This document shows, one piece after another, positions 4,687 to 38,489 of a stretch of 64,000 bases of DNA. This DNA comes from Octopus vulgaris (taxonomy: Eukaryota). The notes beneath the pieces are model-generated. The model had not been told where the DNA came from and did not search any database. It saw nothing but the letters and a program-made list of their open reading frames with translations. The DNA lies in contig OX597814.1 of the NCBI GenBank assembly GCA_951406725.2, positions 212,784,001 through 212,848,000 on the forward strand, in the 5' to 3' direction. Position 1 is the stretch's first letter. Each line of letters begins with the position of its first letter. The position numbers were made by a program, and so were the translations under genes.

Positions 4687-5052
4687 TAATAATAATAATA
4701 ATAATAATTGTGTACAGTGCTCAGGTGCACTACAACTCATCTAAAGTGTATATATAATCAGGTGTAGTTTCGGCGGATTTCGGAAAGCATGAGGGCCTTA
4801 AAAGATGCAGTGTCATGGCAGTCAACAACTGACGCAGGCAGTTTATTCCATGCTTCAGCAATTCTGAGCGTGAAAAAATGTTTCCGAAAGTCATGGGAGC
4901 TGTATTGTTTTCTGACTTTGTAGGCATGTCCACGTGTGTTAGACACATGGAGATCAAAAAGGTGTTCAGTGTTGTTGTTGGTGAGGAGGTTGATAACTTT
5001 GTGGGTGTTTACCAAGTCCGTCGCCAAACGCCGGAGCTTCAGTGAATCCATT
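4687..5052 (-). mobile_element. CR1-clade LINE, 5'-truncated 3' end
   Basis: ORF 4758-5051: LRRL..DL, TRGH..K, FFT.R....WN.LP...V (CR1 ORF2 C-terminus), then a (TAT)n tail. Confidence 0.85.
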
Positions 5053-5882: not shown

Positions 5883-5911
<29 letters not shown>

Positions 5912-5912
5912 C

Positions 5913-6423
5913 TTTTGGGAGTAAGCGTCATAAATCACTTTCTAGCTTCGGCCGTAGGAAGTTGAAATTTGATAGCTTTGTGATGCGTGGTCACTCTACA
6001 TCCATCCATCGCTACAGGTTTATAGCTTTATGTTATATAGAGTGTATGTGCGTGCATATACACACACATACATATATACATACATACATACATACATACA
6101 TACATACATGCATACACAGGCGTATGTGCGTACATGCATACGTACATACATACACACATGTATGCATACATACACACATACATACGTACATATATATGTC
6201 GAACTACCTGTTACTTTCTTAGATGCAGCACGGACTTTGTCAGTGAACAGGTCGCGGATTTTAGCGACGAAAATATTTTGACAAATTAAACTTAAATGTA
6301 GAAGTGAATCGAACGGATTTTGTGTGTTTCTTAAATGGCTTATAAACACCTTCCACGCTGCAATTGTTTTCGTTTCAGCACACGATCTCAGATCAAATTA
6401 CTTGCTATGCGAGTACATCTCCG

Positions 6424-6427
<4 letters not shown>
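5913..6427 (+). mobile_element. solo Penelope pLTR, inverted relative to 7755-8281
   Basis: Reverse-complement match to 7755-8281; carries the hammerhead at 6236; flanked by (TA)n. Confidence 0.8.
6236..6285 (+). ncRNA. hammerhead ribozyme variant (G3-C8 core)
   Basis: Helix I TTTGTCA/TGACAAA; core GTGAACA; helix II GTCGC/GCGAC; GAAA; palindromic helix III AATATT; UUU site. Confidence 0.7.
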
Positions 6428-6489
<62 letters not shown>

Positions 6490-6516
6490 AAATAAAAACA
6501 TGATGCCAAGGATTCA

Positions 6517-6594
6517 GCGGTACATATGTTTCGGGCCTTTATTAGACAGATTTATAACAATGCATAATGTATGTCTGTGGCCTTCTTCAGCCGC
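6517..6594 (-). ncRNA. type I hammerhead ribozyme, extended helix II
   Basis: GCGG-CTGAAGA-AGGCC...GGCCC-GAAAC-ATAT-GTA-CCGC. Confidence 0.8.
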
Positions 6595-7056
6595 GCACAA
6601 CAACTTCCACAAGGACATGTGTTACATCAAAAATTCTTGGTTGGGGATGCAAATCCTCTCATTCGCGCACGACATAATGCGGCAGCAGCATAGAATTGAA
6701 GCGTCCATCTCTTTCTTCTCTCAATGTAGAATGAGGGAATTTAGATGTTGAAGTAATGTAAATAAATTAACAAATAAATACATATATAGACATGAAGGGA
6801 CCTGGTGATAAGAGTAAATAGGGGTAAAGATGGAGGGGCGAGAATTCAGGACGAAGGATAAAAAAATATATAAAAAGTGTAAGTATAGAAAAATGTAAAA
6901 GTGTAGAGTATAAAGATATAAAGAGATATAAGGAGATATAAGGGGGTATAAAGAATATAAAAAAATATAAATGAATATAAAGGTATCAAGTTATAAAGTA
7001 AAAATAGAAATAGAAATAAAAATTATCTTACAATTATCAAGTACTCACCCCGAATT

Positions 7057-7099
<43 letters not shown>

Positions 7100-7100
7100 G

Positions 7101-7147
<47 letters not shown>

Positions 7148-7165
7148 CATATATATATATATTCA

Positions 7166-7229
<64 letters not shown>

Positions 7230-7366
7230 CAAGATTAATCAGCCGAAATTGCGAAGATGATCCAGTTCTTGACTGATGATTGAGGGCTTCGAATGTCCCG
7301 TCCGTATTTTTTGTGTCGTCTTCTAAATGTTTCACGTTCTTGTCCCGATTGTATATTTTTTACTTT

Positions 7367-7423
<57 letters not shown>

Positions 7424-7896
7424 ATGTGTGTATGCATGCATGTATGTATATAGTAAATCCCCAGAGTACGAAGAAAACTCAACAAGACATAAAACAACAA
7501 CGTACGGACATGGTAGATGTTAAAAATTATCAAACGCTCAGAGAAAGAAGAATGGTGGTTTTACCCTTCGTGAGAAACAGGAGACGGAGGAAAGTCCAAG
7601 AGAAAAGGAAGCTGAAGGAAGAAATCGCTAACGATCAACATGTGGTTACATTTTGAAATACACACACACACACACACAAGCGCACACACATAGAAAGGGA
7701 GAGAGAGAGCGCGCGATATACATACGCGCGATGTACATATATATATATATATATATTACGGAGATGTACTCGCATAGCAAGTAATTTGATCTGAGATCGT
7801 GTGCTGAAACGAAAACAATTGCAGCGTGGAAGGTGTTTATAAGCCATTTAAGAAACACACAAAAGCCGTTCGATTCACTTCTACATTTAAGTTTAA

Positions 7897-7946
7897 TTTG
7901 TCAAAATATTTTCGTCGCTAAAATCCGCGACCTGTTCACTGACAAA
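7897..7946 (-). ncRNA. hammerhead ribozyme variant (G3-C8)
   Basis: Reverse complement of 6236-6285. Confidence 0.7.
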
Positions 7947-8947
7947 GTCCGTGCTGCATCTAAGAAAGTAACAGTTAGTTCGTCATATATATGTATGTAT
8001 GTATGTGTGTGTGTATGCATATATGTGTGTATGTATGTACGTATGCATGTACGTACATACGTCTGTGTATGCATGTATGTATGTATGTTTGTATGTATGT
8101 ATATATGTATGTATGTATATATGTATGTGTGTGTATATGCACGCACATACACTCTATAAAACATAAAGCTATAAACTTGTAGCGATGGATGGATGTAGAG
8201 TGACCACTCATCACAAAGCTATCAAATTTCAACTTCCTACGGCCGAAGCTAGAAAGTGATTTATGACGCTTACTCCCAAAACTATACCCTAAAATCTATT
8301 ATCAGATCTTTATCTCTATATCACAGAACTATTGTTTTACCATTGTGCGTATGTATGTATGTATGTATGTATGTATGTATGTATGTATGTATGTATGTAT
8401 GTATGTATGTATGTATGTATGTGTGTATGTATGTGTGTATGTACATACGTACGCATGTGCGTATGTATGTATACGCGCTCGTATGCATGTGCGCATGTAT
8501 GTGTGTGCGTACATGTACGTGCGTATGTACGTGTGTATGCCCATACGTAGGTATGTATGTATGTTTGTATTCATGTGTTACGTATGTATGTGAGTGTCTA
8601 GGAGAAAGGGCAGACGTGTCAGTGTGTACATGTGTATGTGTATGTGAACGTATGTCCGTGTACTGGCATGTGTCCGTCCAAGTTGTGTACATGACTGTTA
8701 CTTTGCTGAAGGTTGTATACATATTCACATATATGTTTGTATAGACGCACACACACATATATATATATATATGTGTGGGTGTGTGTTTGTTCCTCTCATC
8801 ATCGTCTAACCGTGAATGGATACAACACCCATGTGCAACTGTACGTATCAAACAACGTCCGCTCGTACCGTTGTATATAATTGCACATACGCATTGCAAC
8901 CCGTATGTAAGGACTACAGGTAAAAGGAGGGAGAGAGAGAGGGGTGG

Positions 8948-9510
8948 TTATAGAATAGTCCTTCTGAATGGGATCTGGATGTTACTCCATTCGTACTTTC
9001 GGTTGAGAGTAGGTTTGTATTCTTGTATACAAACAGCTTCTGTGACCTGTCTCAACATTGCATCGGTGGGATGTGTTGATAGGATGTTCAACTTAAGCTT
9101 CCCTAAGGATCCCTTGTGGCAGTCTACAGCATGTTGGTAGAAGATGGAGTTTGGCTTCCTTTCAATGTAGTTGTCCAGGTGTTCTTTGAACCTATCATTG
9201 ATGCTTCCAGAAGTCTCACCTATGTATGACTCTGGGTTAGTCGCGCAAGCTCCCTCCTGGCACTTAATCTGGTATACAATGCCCTTGGTTTTACAATTCA
9301 CATGTGGATTTGTCGAACATACCGCACAGTTACTTTGACAGGTGATTCTATCAAATGGATATGATCTGCATAACGCCGATTTGATAGTCCTACCTGTCTT
9401 TTCTACAACTTTAACTTTTAGGCCCGTAGTGCGCAGGACTTTCTTGAATGCCTTACTTAGCTCGTTCTTAGGTGTGGCGTCAACGAACATCACTCCGTGA
9501 AATCTCCTGT
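8948..9510 (-). CDS. Penelope-like GIY-YIG endonuclease, C-terminal fragment
   Basis: C..C..C linker, GIVYQIKC...YIGETS...RFKEH, H...CH, EA..I....P.LN. Confidence 0.9.
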
Positions 9511-9588
9511 TATCGTACATACATACACACATACATACGTATATATATATGACGAACTAATTGTTACTTTCTTAGATGCAGCACGGAC

Positions 9589-9638
9589 TTTGTCAGTGAA
9601 CAGGTCGCGGATTTTAGCGACGAAAATATTTTGACAAA
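9589..9638 (+). ncRNA. hammerhead ribozyme variant (G3-C8)
   Basis: Identical to 6236-6285. Confidence 0.7.
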
Positions 9639-9806
9639 TTAAACTTAAATGTAGAAGTGAATCGAACGGCTTTTGTGTGTTTCTTAAATGGCTTATAAAC
9701 ACCTTCCACGCTGCAATTGTATATATATATATATATATACAAACACGTACAAACATACATATATGCATACATGCATGCATACGTATATGTATACATACGT
9801 GCATAC

Positions 9807-10724: not shown

Positions 10725-10944
10725 TCAATATAGGGTGGCAAAAAAATTTTGTAGAATTTTTTTTGTCACCAGCGGCCTAGTGGGAAAAATTAAATAGTCA
10801 TAGACCATTTATAAGTTCAACATCACAATCAAGGAACGGCCATAATAGGCCATTCACCCACTAGAAATAACAGCCAAAGCTTCAACCGCAAAATAACATT
10901 AATTCCGCAAACCAGGAGAAAATTAAAAAAACGTTTACCCTGTA

Positions 10945-11051
10945 ATTTCTTATACGATGCACCGTTTCATCTACTGTTTAATGGTAAACTAACCTGATTA
11001 AATTAAATCAAGCCAATCTTCCATAGGCCCTTAGATTCGTCAGTAAGAAAT
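10945..11051 (-). ncRNA. type I hammerhead ribozyme
   Basis: ATTTCTTA-CTGACGA-ATCTA...TAGAT-GAAAC-GGTGCATC-GTA-TAAGAAAT. Confidence 0.85.
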
Positions 11052-11444
11052 AGCCAGATCGGAACAGATATTTTCACGAGGCACTTCTGTCCCTGCCTCG
11101 GCAATATCTGACCTAAAATTTTCAAATCATCGCACTCGCGCCAAATTTATCGGCAGCAAATAAATATAAGCCGCCGATTCCATTACGGAATCAACCAGAA
11201 AATTCATAATTAATCAATATAGGGTGGCAAAAAAATTTTGTAGAATTTTTTTTTTTTTTTTTTTTCACCAGCGGCCTAGTGGGAAAAAATTAAATAGTCA
11301 TAGACCATTTATAAGTTCAACATCACAATCAAGGAACGGCCATAATAGGCCATTCATCCACTAGAAATAACAGCCAAAGCTTCAACTGCAAAATAACATT
11401 AATTCCGCAAACCAGGAGAAAATTAAAAAAACGTTTACCCTGTA

Positions 11445-11550: not shown

Positions 11551-11728
11551 AGCCAGATCGGAACAGATATTTTCACGAGGCACTTCTGTCCCTGCCTCGG
11601 AATCGGCGGCTTATATTTATTTGCTGCCGATAAATTTGGCGCGAGTGCGATGATTTGAAAATTTTAGGTCAGATATTGCCGAGGCAGGGACAGAAGTGCC
11701 TCGTGAAAATATCTGTTCCGATCTGGCT

Positions 11729-11835
11729 ATTTCTTACTGACGAATCTAAGGGCCTATGGAAGATTGGTTTGATTTAATTTAATCAGGTTAGTTTACCATT
11801 AAACAGTAGATGAAACGGTGCATCGTATAAGAAAT
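11729..11835 (+). ncRNA. type I hammerhead ribozyme
   Basis: Helix I 11729-36/11828-35, CTGACGA 11737-43, helix II ATCTA/TAGAT, GAAAC 11812-16, GTA 11825-27. Confidence 0.85.
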
Positions 11836-11953
11836 TACAGGGTAAACGTTTTTTTAATTTTCTCCTGGTTTGCGGAATTAATGTTATTTTGCGGTTGAAG
11901 CTTTGGCTGTTATTTCTAGTGGGTGAATGGCCTATTATGGCCGTTCCTTGATT

Positions 11954-12017
<64 letters not shown>

Positions 12018-25676: not shown

Positions 25677-26217
<541 letters not shown>

Positions 26218-32817: not shown

Positions 32818-32894
32818 TTGAGTTGTGGGGTATCGCACGAGTGGGATTATATAAGAAAAAAGGTTTGAAAATGCAATTTAAACGATGTTTATTT

Positions 32895-32935
32895 ACTTAA
32901 CCGGTTTCACTCTTTGGTAAAAGATTGTCAAAAGT
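32895..32935 (-). ncRNA. minimal hammerhead variant (U3-A8)
   Basis: Reverse complement of 35194-35234. Confidence 0.55.
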
Positions 32936-33513
32936 TACATTTAAGGAAACATTGAATAATATGGGTTCAAAAAAGTTTTTTACATAATTGTCACATTGAA
33001 TATTATGCATTCAAAAAAGTTTTTTACATAATTGTCACATTGGATATTATGGGTTCAAAAAAAGTTTTTTACATAATTGTCACATTGGATATTATGAATT
33101 CAAAAATGTTTTTTTATACATAATTGTCACATTATTTGGGAAAATTTGGCAGAAAAGGATAAAACAAATATATTATTGGGAATTGGTTGCGTTAATTATT
33201 GGTTGTCGCAAATTGTCACATTACATGTATATATATACAATCTTTGGTATATATATACAGCGTTTTGACAGCAAAAATTAAAATGGATTTTTTGTCCATC
33301 TCAGAATATTTTAAGTATGTTTTTACTGACCTGTCAGTATTAGCAGAAAGGCTGAACTGAGAGAACAGAAGTGCGCGCGTTGTATGTGTTTGTGTGTGTG
33401 CACGTGTGTATATATGTGTGTGTGTGTGTGTGCACTGTGTGCGGGTGTGTGTGTATGTGTGTGTGTGTGTGTGTGAGCATTGTATACGTGTGTATGTATT
33501 TACATATGTATCT

Positions 33514-33569
<56 letters not shown>

Positions 33570-35193
33570 ATATGCATGGTATGTGTGTATATGTTAGTAC
33601 TTTGTTTGTGTGTATGTGCGGCATGTAGAGATATATTTGAGTGTGTACGCTATAGGTTTGTAATTTGTGTGTGTGGGGGGTGGTGAATTTTTTATATATA
33701 TATGTGTGTGTGTATGTGTGTGAAAAAATATATGTATGTGCATGTATGTATGTATGTATGTGTGTATATATATATATATATATGTGTATATATATGTGTG
33801 TGTGTGTATGTGTGTGTGTGTATATTTATTTGCATGTTTATGTGTGTATAAACATGTACATTATTTGCATGCGCATTGTATATATGTATATTGTATGTAT
33901 GTGTATTGTATATGTACGTGTACAATTAAGTGTATATATTTGTGTGTATGTGTGCACTGTATATATGTATATTGTAGGTGTGCTATATGTGCATGAATAC
34001 ATGTATATGCATTGCGTGTATATATATGTATGCATTGTGTGTGTATGTATGTTATGTGTGTGTGTGTGTATATATATATTATATGTATGCGTACGTGTAT
34101 GTGTATGCATTGTATGTATGTGTGTTGTGTGTATATGTGGTACATCTATGTATGTGTATGTAAACACTATTTATATGTATATGTGTATATATGTATATGC
34201 ATTGTCTATATATATATATATTATATGTATGTATTGCGTATGTATATTGCATGCATATATTGTGTATGTATATTACTTACATGCTGTATGTGTGTATTGT
34301 ATGTGTGTATATATATATGCTAGGTGTATTTGTGTGATATTTATATTATGTATGTATGTGTGCGTGTGTTGTGTGTGTGTGTGTGTATGTGTGTTATATA
34401 TCTGTGTATGTTATATATAGATACATGTTATATTTGTGTGCTGTGTGTATATGTGATATATGTGGGTGCGTTGTGTGTGGGTGTGTGTGTTCTGTGTGTG
34501 TGTGTTGTTTGTATGTGGTTTGTGTTTGTATACTATGTGTGTGTGTGTGTGTGTTGTTGTGTGTGTGTGTGTTTGTGTGTATATATATGTGTGTGACAAA
34601 CAGACGCTGTCTGACCAGCAGGCACGGACACATCTATTCATACCCGCATACTAACCTCCTGATAACCCCAAAATCATTCATGCATAAAGGGGAAGTATAC
34701 ACCACATTGGCTACTTCTGTTCTCTCAGTTCAGCCTTTCTGCTAATACTGACAGGTCAGTAAAAACATACTTAAAATATTCTGAGATGGACAAAAAATCC
34801 ATTTTAATTTTTGCTGTCAAAACGCTGTATATATATACCAAAGATTGTATATATATACATGTAATGTGACAATTTGCGACAACCAATAATTAACGCAACC
34901 AATTCCCAATAATATATTTGTTTTATCCTTTTCTGCCAAATTTTCCCAAATAATGTGACAATTATGTATAAAAAAACATTTTTGAATTCATAATATCCAA
35001 TGTGACAATTATGTAAAAAACTTTTTTGAATGCATAATATTCAATGTGACAATTATGTAAAAAACTTTTTTTGAACCCATAATATCCAATGTGACAATTA
35101 TGTAAAAAACTTTTTTGAATGCATAATTTTCAATGTGACAATTATGTAAAAAACTTTTTTGAACCCATATTATTCAATGTTTCCTTAAATGTA

Positions 35194-35234
35194 ACTTTTG
35201 ACAATCTTTTACCAAAGAGTGAAACCGGTTAAGT
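35194..35234 (+). ncRNA. minimal hammerhead variant (U3-A8)
   Basis: ACTT-TTGACAA-TCTTTT-ACCA-AAGAGT-GAAA-CCG-GTT-AAGT. Confidence 0.55.
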
Positions 35235-35273
35235 AAATAAACATCGTTTAAATTGCATTTTCAAACCTTTTTT

Positions 35274-35327
<54 letters not shown>

Positions 35328-37910: not shown

Positions 37911-38489
37911 AAAGAGACGACACAAAAAACGGACGGGTCAATCGAAGCCTCTAATCTTCAGTCAGGAACCGGATGATCCTAGCAATTTCGGCTGATTAAT
38001 CCTGATATCGCTCCGTTCCGGCCAGCCCCAAGGAAAAACTAAGCTGCGAGCATTAGATTTCTTGGAAAAAGGATCGAATGTATACGAAACAAGGACAGAA
38101 AAACGGGCGATGCCTTTGACCGTGCCACGACAACACCGTATTCTTCGTCTGCCGAACAGGTATTTATTTCAAAATACGTCAGCTAAGATAAGTTAAACTG
38201 TCTAAAGTCGTAAGACACCTGCTGTTTTTGTCCTGTTATTACTACTCTTGTTTTTTATTTTTGTTTCTTGTATTTATATTTGTGTGGCATCGTCCGTTTT
38301 TCTGTCCTGGTTTCGTATACATTCTATCCTTTTTCCAAGAAATCTAATGCTCGCAGCTTAGTTTTTCCTTGAGGCTGGCCGGATCGGAGCGATATCAGGA
38401 TTAATCGGCCGAAATTGCTAGGATGATCCGGTTCCTGACTGAAGATTAGAGGCTTCGAATGACCCGTCCGTTTTTTGTGTCGTCTCTTT
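37911..38489. repeat. inverted repeat (37911-38114 / 38286-38489), pLTR-like; relative at 7230-7370
   Basis: ~200-bp arms with a few mismatches, in (TA)n. Confidence 0.85.

What the first reader, a model, noticed from the sequence alone, without database searches (positions are those of the whole stretch)
7755..9720. G3-C8 swapped hammerhead physically linked to a GIY-YIG Penelope ORF
Seen: core GTGAACA instead of CTGANGA inside a perfect three-way junction, identical in 3 copies. It lies in sense orientation downstream of the endonuclease ORF and inverted at the 5'-truncation point. Known: hammerhead positions 3 and 8 form a Watson-Crick pair, so this is a compensatory swap. The UUU cleavage triplet is atypical. 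This copy links a non-canonical ribozyme to its likely autonomous mobiliser.
Basis: partly seen in the sequence, partly recalled or inferred. Interest (0 to 1): 0.7.

Follow-up and report, generated by a model that had tools for sequence, protein, structure and literature searches.

The report
Swapped-core hammerhead in Penelope-like retroelement
A truncated copy of a Penelope-like jumping gene carries a small RNA motif shaped like a self-cutting hammerhead ribozyme, but with two paired core letters swapped; it likely cuts itself slowly and only in pairs, which is untested, and the standard RNA-family library does not detect it.

Summary
The motif is real: three identical 50-nt copies of a type I hammerhead fold with G3/C8 in place of C3/G8 (0 equal hits in 100 shuffles). 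It is not a perfect three-way junction: helix III is only a 6-nt palindrome, and an extra G sits between A9 and G10.1. A palindrome and an extra base there are traits of minimal hammerheads of animal Penelope-like elements (PLEs). U17 is common in these (24 of 56 published), UUU rare (1 of 56), G3-C8 absent (0 of 56). The ORF is the C-terminal endonuclease end of a Neptune-like PLE. This copy is 5'-truncated, lacks the RT and is not autonomous. Inverted repeat at the break, one-sided tail and (TA)n flanks fit one ordinary PLE insertion, so the link is likely, but no other ORF-plus-repeat copy could be read. Sequencing contigs show a far more abundant repeat family and a second subfamily keeping the swapped core. 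An engineered swap is partly active in a published PLE hammerhead; cleavage here is untested. The scan noted G3-C8 PLE hammerheads before in two other genomes. Verdict: new natural variant of a known kind.

The parts
8948..9517 (-). 5'-truncated PLE ORF end: CX3CxxC linker plus GIY-YIG endonuclease with CCHH motif, 189 codons, open to a stop at 8948-8950; no RT
   Evidence: Pfam GIY-YIG 23.6 bits, cut-off 22.6; matches 38 of 39 columns conserved in >=75% of 60 homologs; 22 of 35 homologs >=400 aa have a [YF]xDD motif upstream of the match, 0 of 35 downstream
8287..8947 (-). Likely 3' UTR of the element, microsatellite-rich
7756..8286 (-). Copy B: sense pLTR with internal microsatellite, hammerhead and tail
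   Evidence: 95% identical to copy A over 547 nt; ends in (TA)n
7897..7946 (-). G3-C8 minimal type I hammerhead motif, sense copy; G3 7939, predicted cleavage after U17 at 7904
7756..7814 (-). One-sided 'tail' of about 59 nt, present in B and A, absent from inverted copy C
   Evidence: C aligns only to 7815; loose ends at 9716-9718 with unrelated letters and at 9719 with tail-like letters
9514..9720 (+). Copy C: inverted partial pLTR joined to the ORF break, ending in (TA)n
   Evidence: 98% identical to B over 203 nt; exact match to A and B starts at 9514, overlapping the last 4 ORF bases (that these bases are ORF-derived is inferred from the W-Y-x-N pattern in homologs)
9589..9638 (+). G3-C8 hammerhead motif in the inverted copy; G3 9596, C8 9601, extra G 9603, U17 9631
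5908..6426 (+). Copy A: separate short insertion of the same pLTR plus tail between (TA)n tracts; hammerhead motif 6236-6285

Best explanation
The stretch is likely one 5'-truncated insertion of a Neptune-like Penelope element, whose terminal repeat carries a minimal type I hammerhead motif with G3 and C8 swapped, predicted to keep the 3-8 pair and to cleave slowly, as a dimer or with help from the element's protein. Shown: the motif, the endonuclease ORF end, the inverted repeat at the break, the one-sided tail, the (TA)n flanks. Inferred: reverse transcription began 90-150 nt 3' of the hammerhead, ran through an uncleaved hammerhead and the 3' UTR, stopped in the RT-EN linker, and an inverted repeat copy was joined there over about 4 nt of microhomology. 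Inferred: two motifs pair through the AAUAUU palindrome to build helix III. Hypothesis: U17 is favoured because C17, the commonest base, would pair with G3 and trap the core.
For: Motif beyond chance. It carries the metazoan PLE traits of Cervera and de la Pena 2014: extra base at 9/10.1, G10.1-C11.1, palindromic helix III. 9 of 11 core bases are canonical and the two changed ones are the Watson-Crick partners; a rough neutral chance of this is 0.006, before any correction for having picked it. In X1 and X2, 57 and 51 contigs form a second subfamily with another loop II whose consensus keeps the swapped core. An engineered C3G/G8C double mutant of a PLE hammerhead is partly active, singles are dead, and cleavage needs the element's protein (Frangieh 2024). 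Inverted copy, tail and (TA)n targeting are published PLE features. Contigs run on past the ORF break in other copies (X7 record 21, 235 nt; X1 record 7) and one X1 contig joins the 3' UTR at 8680 to the repeat at 9595 in the same geometry. A head-to-tail joint 9720 to 9616 is seen in X1 and X2. C3-G17 trapping is published, and G3-C8 was said to do better with G17 than C17, data not shown.
Against: No cleavage data. Three departures coincide: G3-C8 (0 of 56 published), extra G (1 of 56; published consensus is H) and UUU (1 of 56). RNAfold prefers a G3-U17 wobble on top of helix I, and a 10-nt palindrome that takes in A13, A14 and U17 is more stable (-3.8) than the 6-nt active register (-0.2 kcal/mol). 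No Rfam hammerhead match even at E<=10. The three window copies are not independent. No listed contig spans ORF to repeat; the 8680-9595 joint is one contig with 25 nt on the short side; the raw-read run X21 laid 0 reads. Five X1 contigs show C8 to T; only 40 of 120 variant rows were shown, none in the core. Hammerhead cleavage was not needed for PLE insertion in vitro.
Confidence: 0.55

Rival explanations
1. The element link is right but the ribozyme is now dead or nearly so: the swap was once functional, later changes (extra G, UUU) silenced it, and the family spread without cleavage.
For: Three coinciding departures; competing folds; cleavage dispensable for insertion in vitro and no RNA-seq ends at the cut site in the anole element; Naiads spread without canonical hammerheads; every genomic copy must come from an uncleaved or religated RNA (inference).
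Against: Core, helix I and helix II strand kept in a second subfamily while loop II changed; extra G and UUU each occur in a published example.
Confidence: 0.3
2. The hammerhead repeat is a separate, very abundant non-autonomous element that landed twice beside an unrelated endonuclease remnant.
For: Repeat depth is 43, 95 and 387 times the ORF's by median, 19, 19 and 51 times in the core bin; copy A stands alone between (TA)n tracts; about 660 nt with microsatellites separate ORF and copy B; no second linked copy was read.
Against: C begins exactly at the ORF break with no (TA)n between; B and C differ at 1 of 167 sites; tail on one side only; a second UTR-to-repeat joint; excess of 3' ends is expected from 5' truncation.
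Confidence: 0.1
3. The motif is a chance look-alike inside a repeat.
For: Modest folding z-scores; no Rfam match.
Against: 0 equal hits in 100 shuffles; it sits where PLE hammerheads sit and has their diagnostic traits.
Confidence: 0.05

Closest known systems
Minimal type I hammerheads (min-HHR) of metazoan Penelope-like elements (Cervera and de la Pena 2014, PMC4209133)
   Same: Position in the pLTR, ORF sense, type I topology, extra base at 9/10.1, G10.1-C11.1, palindromic helix III, U17; a second copy on the opposite strand at the 5' end of a truncated element is shown in their Fig. S4A legend.
   Different: G3-C8 core (they report C3-G8 and U3-A8; their descriptors did not ask for G3-C8); extra base is G; 7-bp helix I is long; UUU triplet is rare.
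PAc hammerhead of the anole Poseidon element, engineered C3G/G8C mutant (Frangieh et al. 2024, PMC11167929)
   Same: Same swap in a PLE hammerhead; partly active.
   Different: There a laboratory rescue mutant, here the natural state of a high-copy family; different PLE clade by the linker motif.
Natural U3-A8 hammerheads (Perreault et al. 2011, PMC3088659; Schistosoma PLEs)
   Same: Natural covariation of the 3-8 pair.
   Different: U3-A8 needs two transitions and keeps a purine at 8; G3-C8 needs two transversions and puts a pyrimidine at 8.
Neptune/Nematis-type C-terminal EN+ PLEs (Craig et al. 2021, PMC8557442)
   Same: CX2-5CxxC linker, CCHH GIY-YIG at the C terminus, inverted 5' copy, one-sided tail, (TA)n target.
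   Different: Tail about 59 nt against the 30-40 nt given; clade not testable without the RT; this copy is a remnant.

Membership tests
Hammerhead ribozyme, type I | Core U4 G5 A6 A9 G12 A13 A14 A15.1 U16.1 and H17 | tested here: met
Hammerhead ribozyme, type I | C3 and G8 identity (CUGANGA) | tested here: not met
   G3 and C8
Hammerhead ribozyme, type I | Watson-Crick complementarity of positions 3 and 8 | tested here: met
   G-C by sequence; the pair itself is tertiary and not shown
Hammerhead ribozyme, type I | Stable monomeric helix III | tested here: not met
   only a 6-nt palindrome
Hammerhead ribozyme, type I | Match to an Rfam hammerhead model | tested here: not met
   0 at gathering in the window; no hammerhead among 115 matches at E<=10 in 5900-9750
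Hammerhead ribozyme, type I | Site-specific self-cleavage | not testable with these tools
   needs an assay
Metazoan PLE min-HHR | Extra nucleotide between 9 and 10.1, G10.1-C11.1, palindromic helix III | tested here: met
Metazoan PLE min-HHR | Extra nucleotide is H (published >80% consensus) | tested here: not met
   G here; 1 of 56 published rows has G
Metazoan PLE min-HHR | Lies in a pLTR in ORF sense | tested here: met
   copy B; shown for this locus only
C-terminal EN+ PLE (Neptune/Nematis type) | GIY-YIG with CCHH and R, E, N residues at the C terminus | tested here: met
C-terminal EN+ PLE (Neptune/Nematis type) | CX2-5CxxC linker before the endonuclease | tested here: met
   C60, C64, C67 invariant in 20 aligned proteins
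C-terminal EN+ PLE (Neptune/Nematis type) | Telomerase-like RT upstream in the same ORF | tested here: inconclusive
   Absent from this copy; 22 of 35 long homologs have an upstream [YF]xDD, 3 of 13 a sub-threshold RVT_1 hit; letters of the run-on contigs were not shown
C-terminal EN+ PLE (Neptune/Nematis type) | Placement in the Neptune clade by RT phylogeny | not testable with these tools
   no RT in the window, no named reference set
Naiad (N-terminal EN+ PLE) | Endonuclease N-terminal to the RT | tested here: not met
   stop follows the domain; 0 of 35 long homologs have [YF]xDD downstream
Non-LTR retrozyme | Tandem non-coding units each with a hammerhead | tested here: not met
   window copies are dispersed or inverted; one head-to-tail joint elsewhere

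The most novel reading that the evidence does not exclude
A very high-copy animal Penelope family runs on a natural, active G3-C8 hammerhead whose U17 is co-adapted to the swap. Surveys that fix CUGANGA, and Rfam, would then miss whole hammerhead families, and some PLE lineages reported as lacking hammerheads may carry swapped ones.
Probability: 0.35. Interest if true: 0.62.

Novelty: new variant of a known kind. Interest (0 to 1): 0.42.

Why it matters
The 3-8 pair positions the general acid of the hammerhead; G3-C8 is known as a weakened laboratory rescue mutant. A large natural family built on it would show that low activity is tolerated or selected in PLEs, which bears on the open question of what these ribozymes do in retrotransposition. 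It gives a cheap test set (single and double revertants, U17C, extra G) and shows a blind spot in descriptor and Rfam searches. The element's architecture itself is ordinary.

Tried and rejected
Own-genome search: no genome held, so linkage in other copies could not be read directly. Metagenome scan with a 17-nt motif: 120 loci, 0 of 120 with the full helix II partner in register (one regex hit without the fold), no alignment longer than 27 nt, no tblastn hit; chance matches. Related loci: none in viral contigs, prokaryote genomes or plasmids. The search for homologous proteins gave 1 protein among 178 candidates. Raw-read run X21 laid 0 reads, so no test. Rfam at E<=10 gave only sub-threshold matches, nearly all on microsatellites. 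The 31-codon open frame from ATG 7847 through the tail could be the ORF's start, as in rotifer Penelope, but had no match among the long homologs, best E 1.7. Other registers of the core were rejected: only one UGA is available, and other readings break A9. Repeat finder output was dominated by microsatellites. Lunse 2017, Przybilski and Hammann 2007 and Hammann 2012 could not be read.

Full report
Observation. The window is AT-rich, microsatellite-dense animal-like DNA (a cephalopod is my guess from recall, untested). A pattern search finds the motif three times: G3 at 6243(+), 9596(+), 7939(-). Each has a 7-bp helix I, core GTGAACA, one extra G, a 5-bp helix II opened by G10.1-C11.1, GAAA, and the triplet UUU. 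A relaxed descriptor gave 8 hits in the window: these 3, 4 with canonical cores (two repeat pairs) and 1 weak hit; 100 dinucleotide shuffles gave 0.34 hits on average and none as good as these. The 'perfect three-way junction' is wrong in two respects: the extra G, and the lack of a monomeric helix III. RNAfold leaves it open and stacks a G3-U17 wobble on helix I. A15.1 to U16.1 is a 6-nt palindrome that could pair between two molecules. Rfam gives no match at gathering score and no hammerhead among 115 matches at E<=10.

The ORF. 8948-9517(-) gives 189 open codons with a Pfam GIY-YIG hit just over the cut-off. A search of 1.84 billion proteins gave 2015 hits at E<=0.001, best 46% identical; the top 150 were listed. 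The protein matches 38 of 39 columns conserved in at least 75% of 60 of these homologs, among them a CX3CxxC linker, the CCHH residues and R, E, N. Of 35 homologs of 400 aa or more, 22 have a [YF]xDD motif upstream and none downstream (the script printed 70 rows because its query file held a second protein, and I counted only the first 35). Only 3 of 13 long homologs scanned gave an RVT_1 hit, all below cut-off. By Craig et al. 2021 (passages) this is the C-terminal endonuclease of a Neptune/Nematis-type PLE. The copy has no RT and cannot be autonomous.

Architecture. On the minus strand: inverted partial repeat C (9514-9720), truncated ORF, about 660 nt of microsatellite-rich 3' UTR, repeat B (8286-7756). 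Both outer ends abut (TA)n. B runs about 59 nt past the end of C, a one-sided tail. C's exact match to A and B begins at 9514, overlapping four bases that appear to belong to the ORF. B and C differ at 1 of 167 shared sites. Inverted copies at the 5' break, a one-sided 30-40 nt tail, microhomology junctions and (TA)n targets are published PLE features (Craig 2021; Arkhipova 2013, passages; Cervera Fig. S4A legend). Copy A is the last 520 nt of the same element between (TA)n tracts.

Other copies. No genome is held. Of 24 runs listed, I laid 4 on 8560-9720. The raw-read run laid nothing; three contig sets laid 8456, 7086 and 815 records. Summed depth is not a copy number, but the repeat exceeds the ORF 43-, 95- and 387-fold by median, while the 3' UTR is 0.6-1.65 times the ORF, as expected if UTR and ORF travel together and most copies are short 3' ends. 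Contigs run on past the ORF break (X7 record 21, X1 record 7), so longer copies exist. One X1 contig joins 8680 to 9595, the same UTR-to-inverted-repeat geometry at another break point, with only 25 nt on the short side. A head-to-tail joint (9720 to 9616) is in X1 and X2. Loose ends before 9616 (57 contigs in X1, 51 in X2) give a consensus with the same helix I strand and swapped core but another loop II; 5 X1 contigs have T at position 8. Only 40 of 120 variant rows were shown, none in the core. The three window copies share an allele at 9653 found in under 1% of depth, so they belong to one minor subfamily and are not independent evidence of conservation.

Comparison with print. Cervera and de la Pena 2014 (main text parts 1-2 of 4, supplement parts 1-2 of 3) define metazoan PLE min-HHRs by an extra base at 9/10.1, G10.1-C11.1 and a palindromic helix III, report a U3-A8 variant, and find low activity only as multimers. 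In their 56-row alignment I count C3-G8 53, U3-A8 2, U3-G8 1, G3-C8 0; U17 24; UUU 1; extra G 1; their descriptors fixed the core, so the zero is biased. Perreault 2011 (section 8 and passages) names only U3-A8 as natural covariation. Frangieh 2024 (parts 1-2 of 4) shows that C3G and G8C kill a PLE hammerhead, the double mutant partly rescues it, cleavage needs the element's protein, and cleavage is not needed for insertion in vitro; a review passage agrees on the rescue (PMC8495972). Kalweit and Hammann 2013 (introduction and passages) describe the C3-G17 trap and state, data not shown, that G3-C8 does better with G17 than C17. That an extra G at 9/10.1 harmed a viroid hammerhead (De la Pena and Flores 2001) is recalled, not read. 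Seven searches showed no report of a natural G3-C8 PLE hammerhead in their listings or in the papers I opened. But Lunse 2017 (a large survey of such variants, by recall), Przybilski and Hammann 2007 and Hammann 2012 were not held, and the supplements of the 2026 preprint (part 1 of 5 and passages) are closed; any of these may list it. Passages of PMC6765202 gave background; those of PMC6962438, PMC6155905 and PMC3376415 added nothing on the swap. Two earlier notes of this scan describe G3-C8 hammerhead candidates behind PLE RTs in other genomes; they are unchecked and not used as support.

Mechanism. Shown: motif, ORF end, geometry. Inferred: target-primed reverse transcription into (TA)n starting at one of two sites 3' of the hammerhead (the ends of C and of the tail lie about 90 and 150 nt past U17), truncation in the linker, and an inverted copy joined by microhomology. 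Since the cDNA runs through the cleavage site, the template was uncut or religated, so a slow ribozyme is compatible with success. That just positions 3 and 8 changed, to a Watson-Crick pair, has a rough neutral chance of 0.006 (uncorrected for selection of the case), which argues for past selection on the fold. Present activity is less sure: three departures coincide, and a 10-nt palindrome that takes in A13, A14 and U17 is more stable than the 6-nt active register. I put the element link near 0.9 and measurable cleavage, given the link, near 0.6.

Verdict. An ordinary truncated PLE insertion carrying a natural core variant that I did not find in print. New variant of a known kind; interest 0.42.

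Noticed in passing
window 6520-6600 (-): Canonical C3-G8 PLE-type hammerhead motif with a roughly 40-nt loop II and a palindromic helix III, about 100 nt from copy A (read by eye; not among the hits).
   Followed up: partly
window 11043 (-) and 11737 (+), within inverted arms 10822-11181 / 11599-11958: Canonical-core hammerhead-like motif with a very long loop II and 8-bp helix I in a fold-back repeat with a partial tandem; likely another PLE family.
   Followed up: no
window 37057 and 37590 (+): Two canonical-core hammerhead-like motifs 533 nt apart in tandem, long loop II, 8-nt palindromic helix III: a dimer-competent arrangement.
   Followed up: no
window 7847-7756 (-): Open frame from an ATG through the end of the tail (31 codons); may be the start of the element's ORF; no match among long homologs.
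   Followed up: partly
window 6243 and 9596 (+): Copies A and C lie on the same strand 3.35 kb apart, so a read-through plus-strand transcript would hold two motifs able to dimerise in cis.
   Followed up: no
window 9588-9715, table 5c: Joints with both sides inside the repeat, two at high depth in X2 (9646 to 9589 and 9708 to 9589); kind not shown, either short tandems of the hammerhead or head-to-head inversions.
   Followed up: no
proteins P0025, P0088, P0090, P0099, P0116, P0120, P0140, P0146: Homologs of this endonuclease with 200-300 further residues C-terminal to it and no RT motif there.
   Followed up: no
window 4758-5051 (-): Reading frame that looks like the C-terminal end of a CR1/L2-type LINE ORF2 (resemblance from recall).
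   Followed up: no
window 32848-35281, 37911-38489, 288-610 / 25780-26104: Further long, near-perfect inverted repeats and a dispersed repeat family; possibly more PLE insertions.
   Followed up: no
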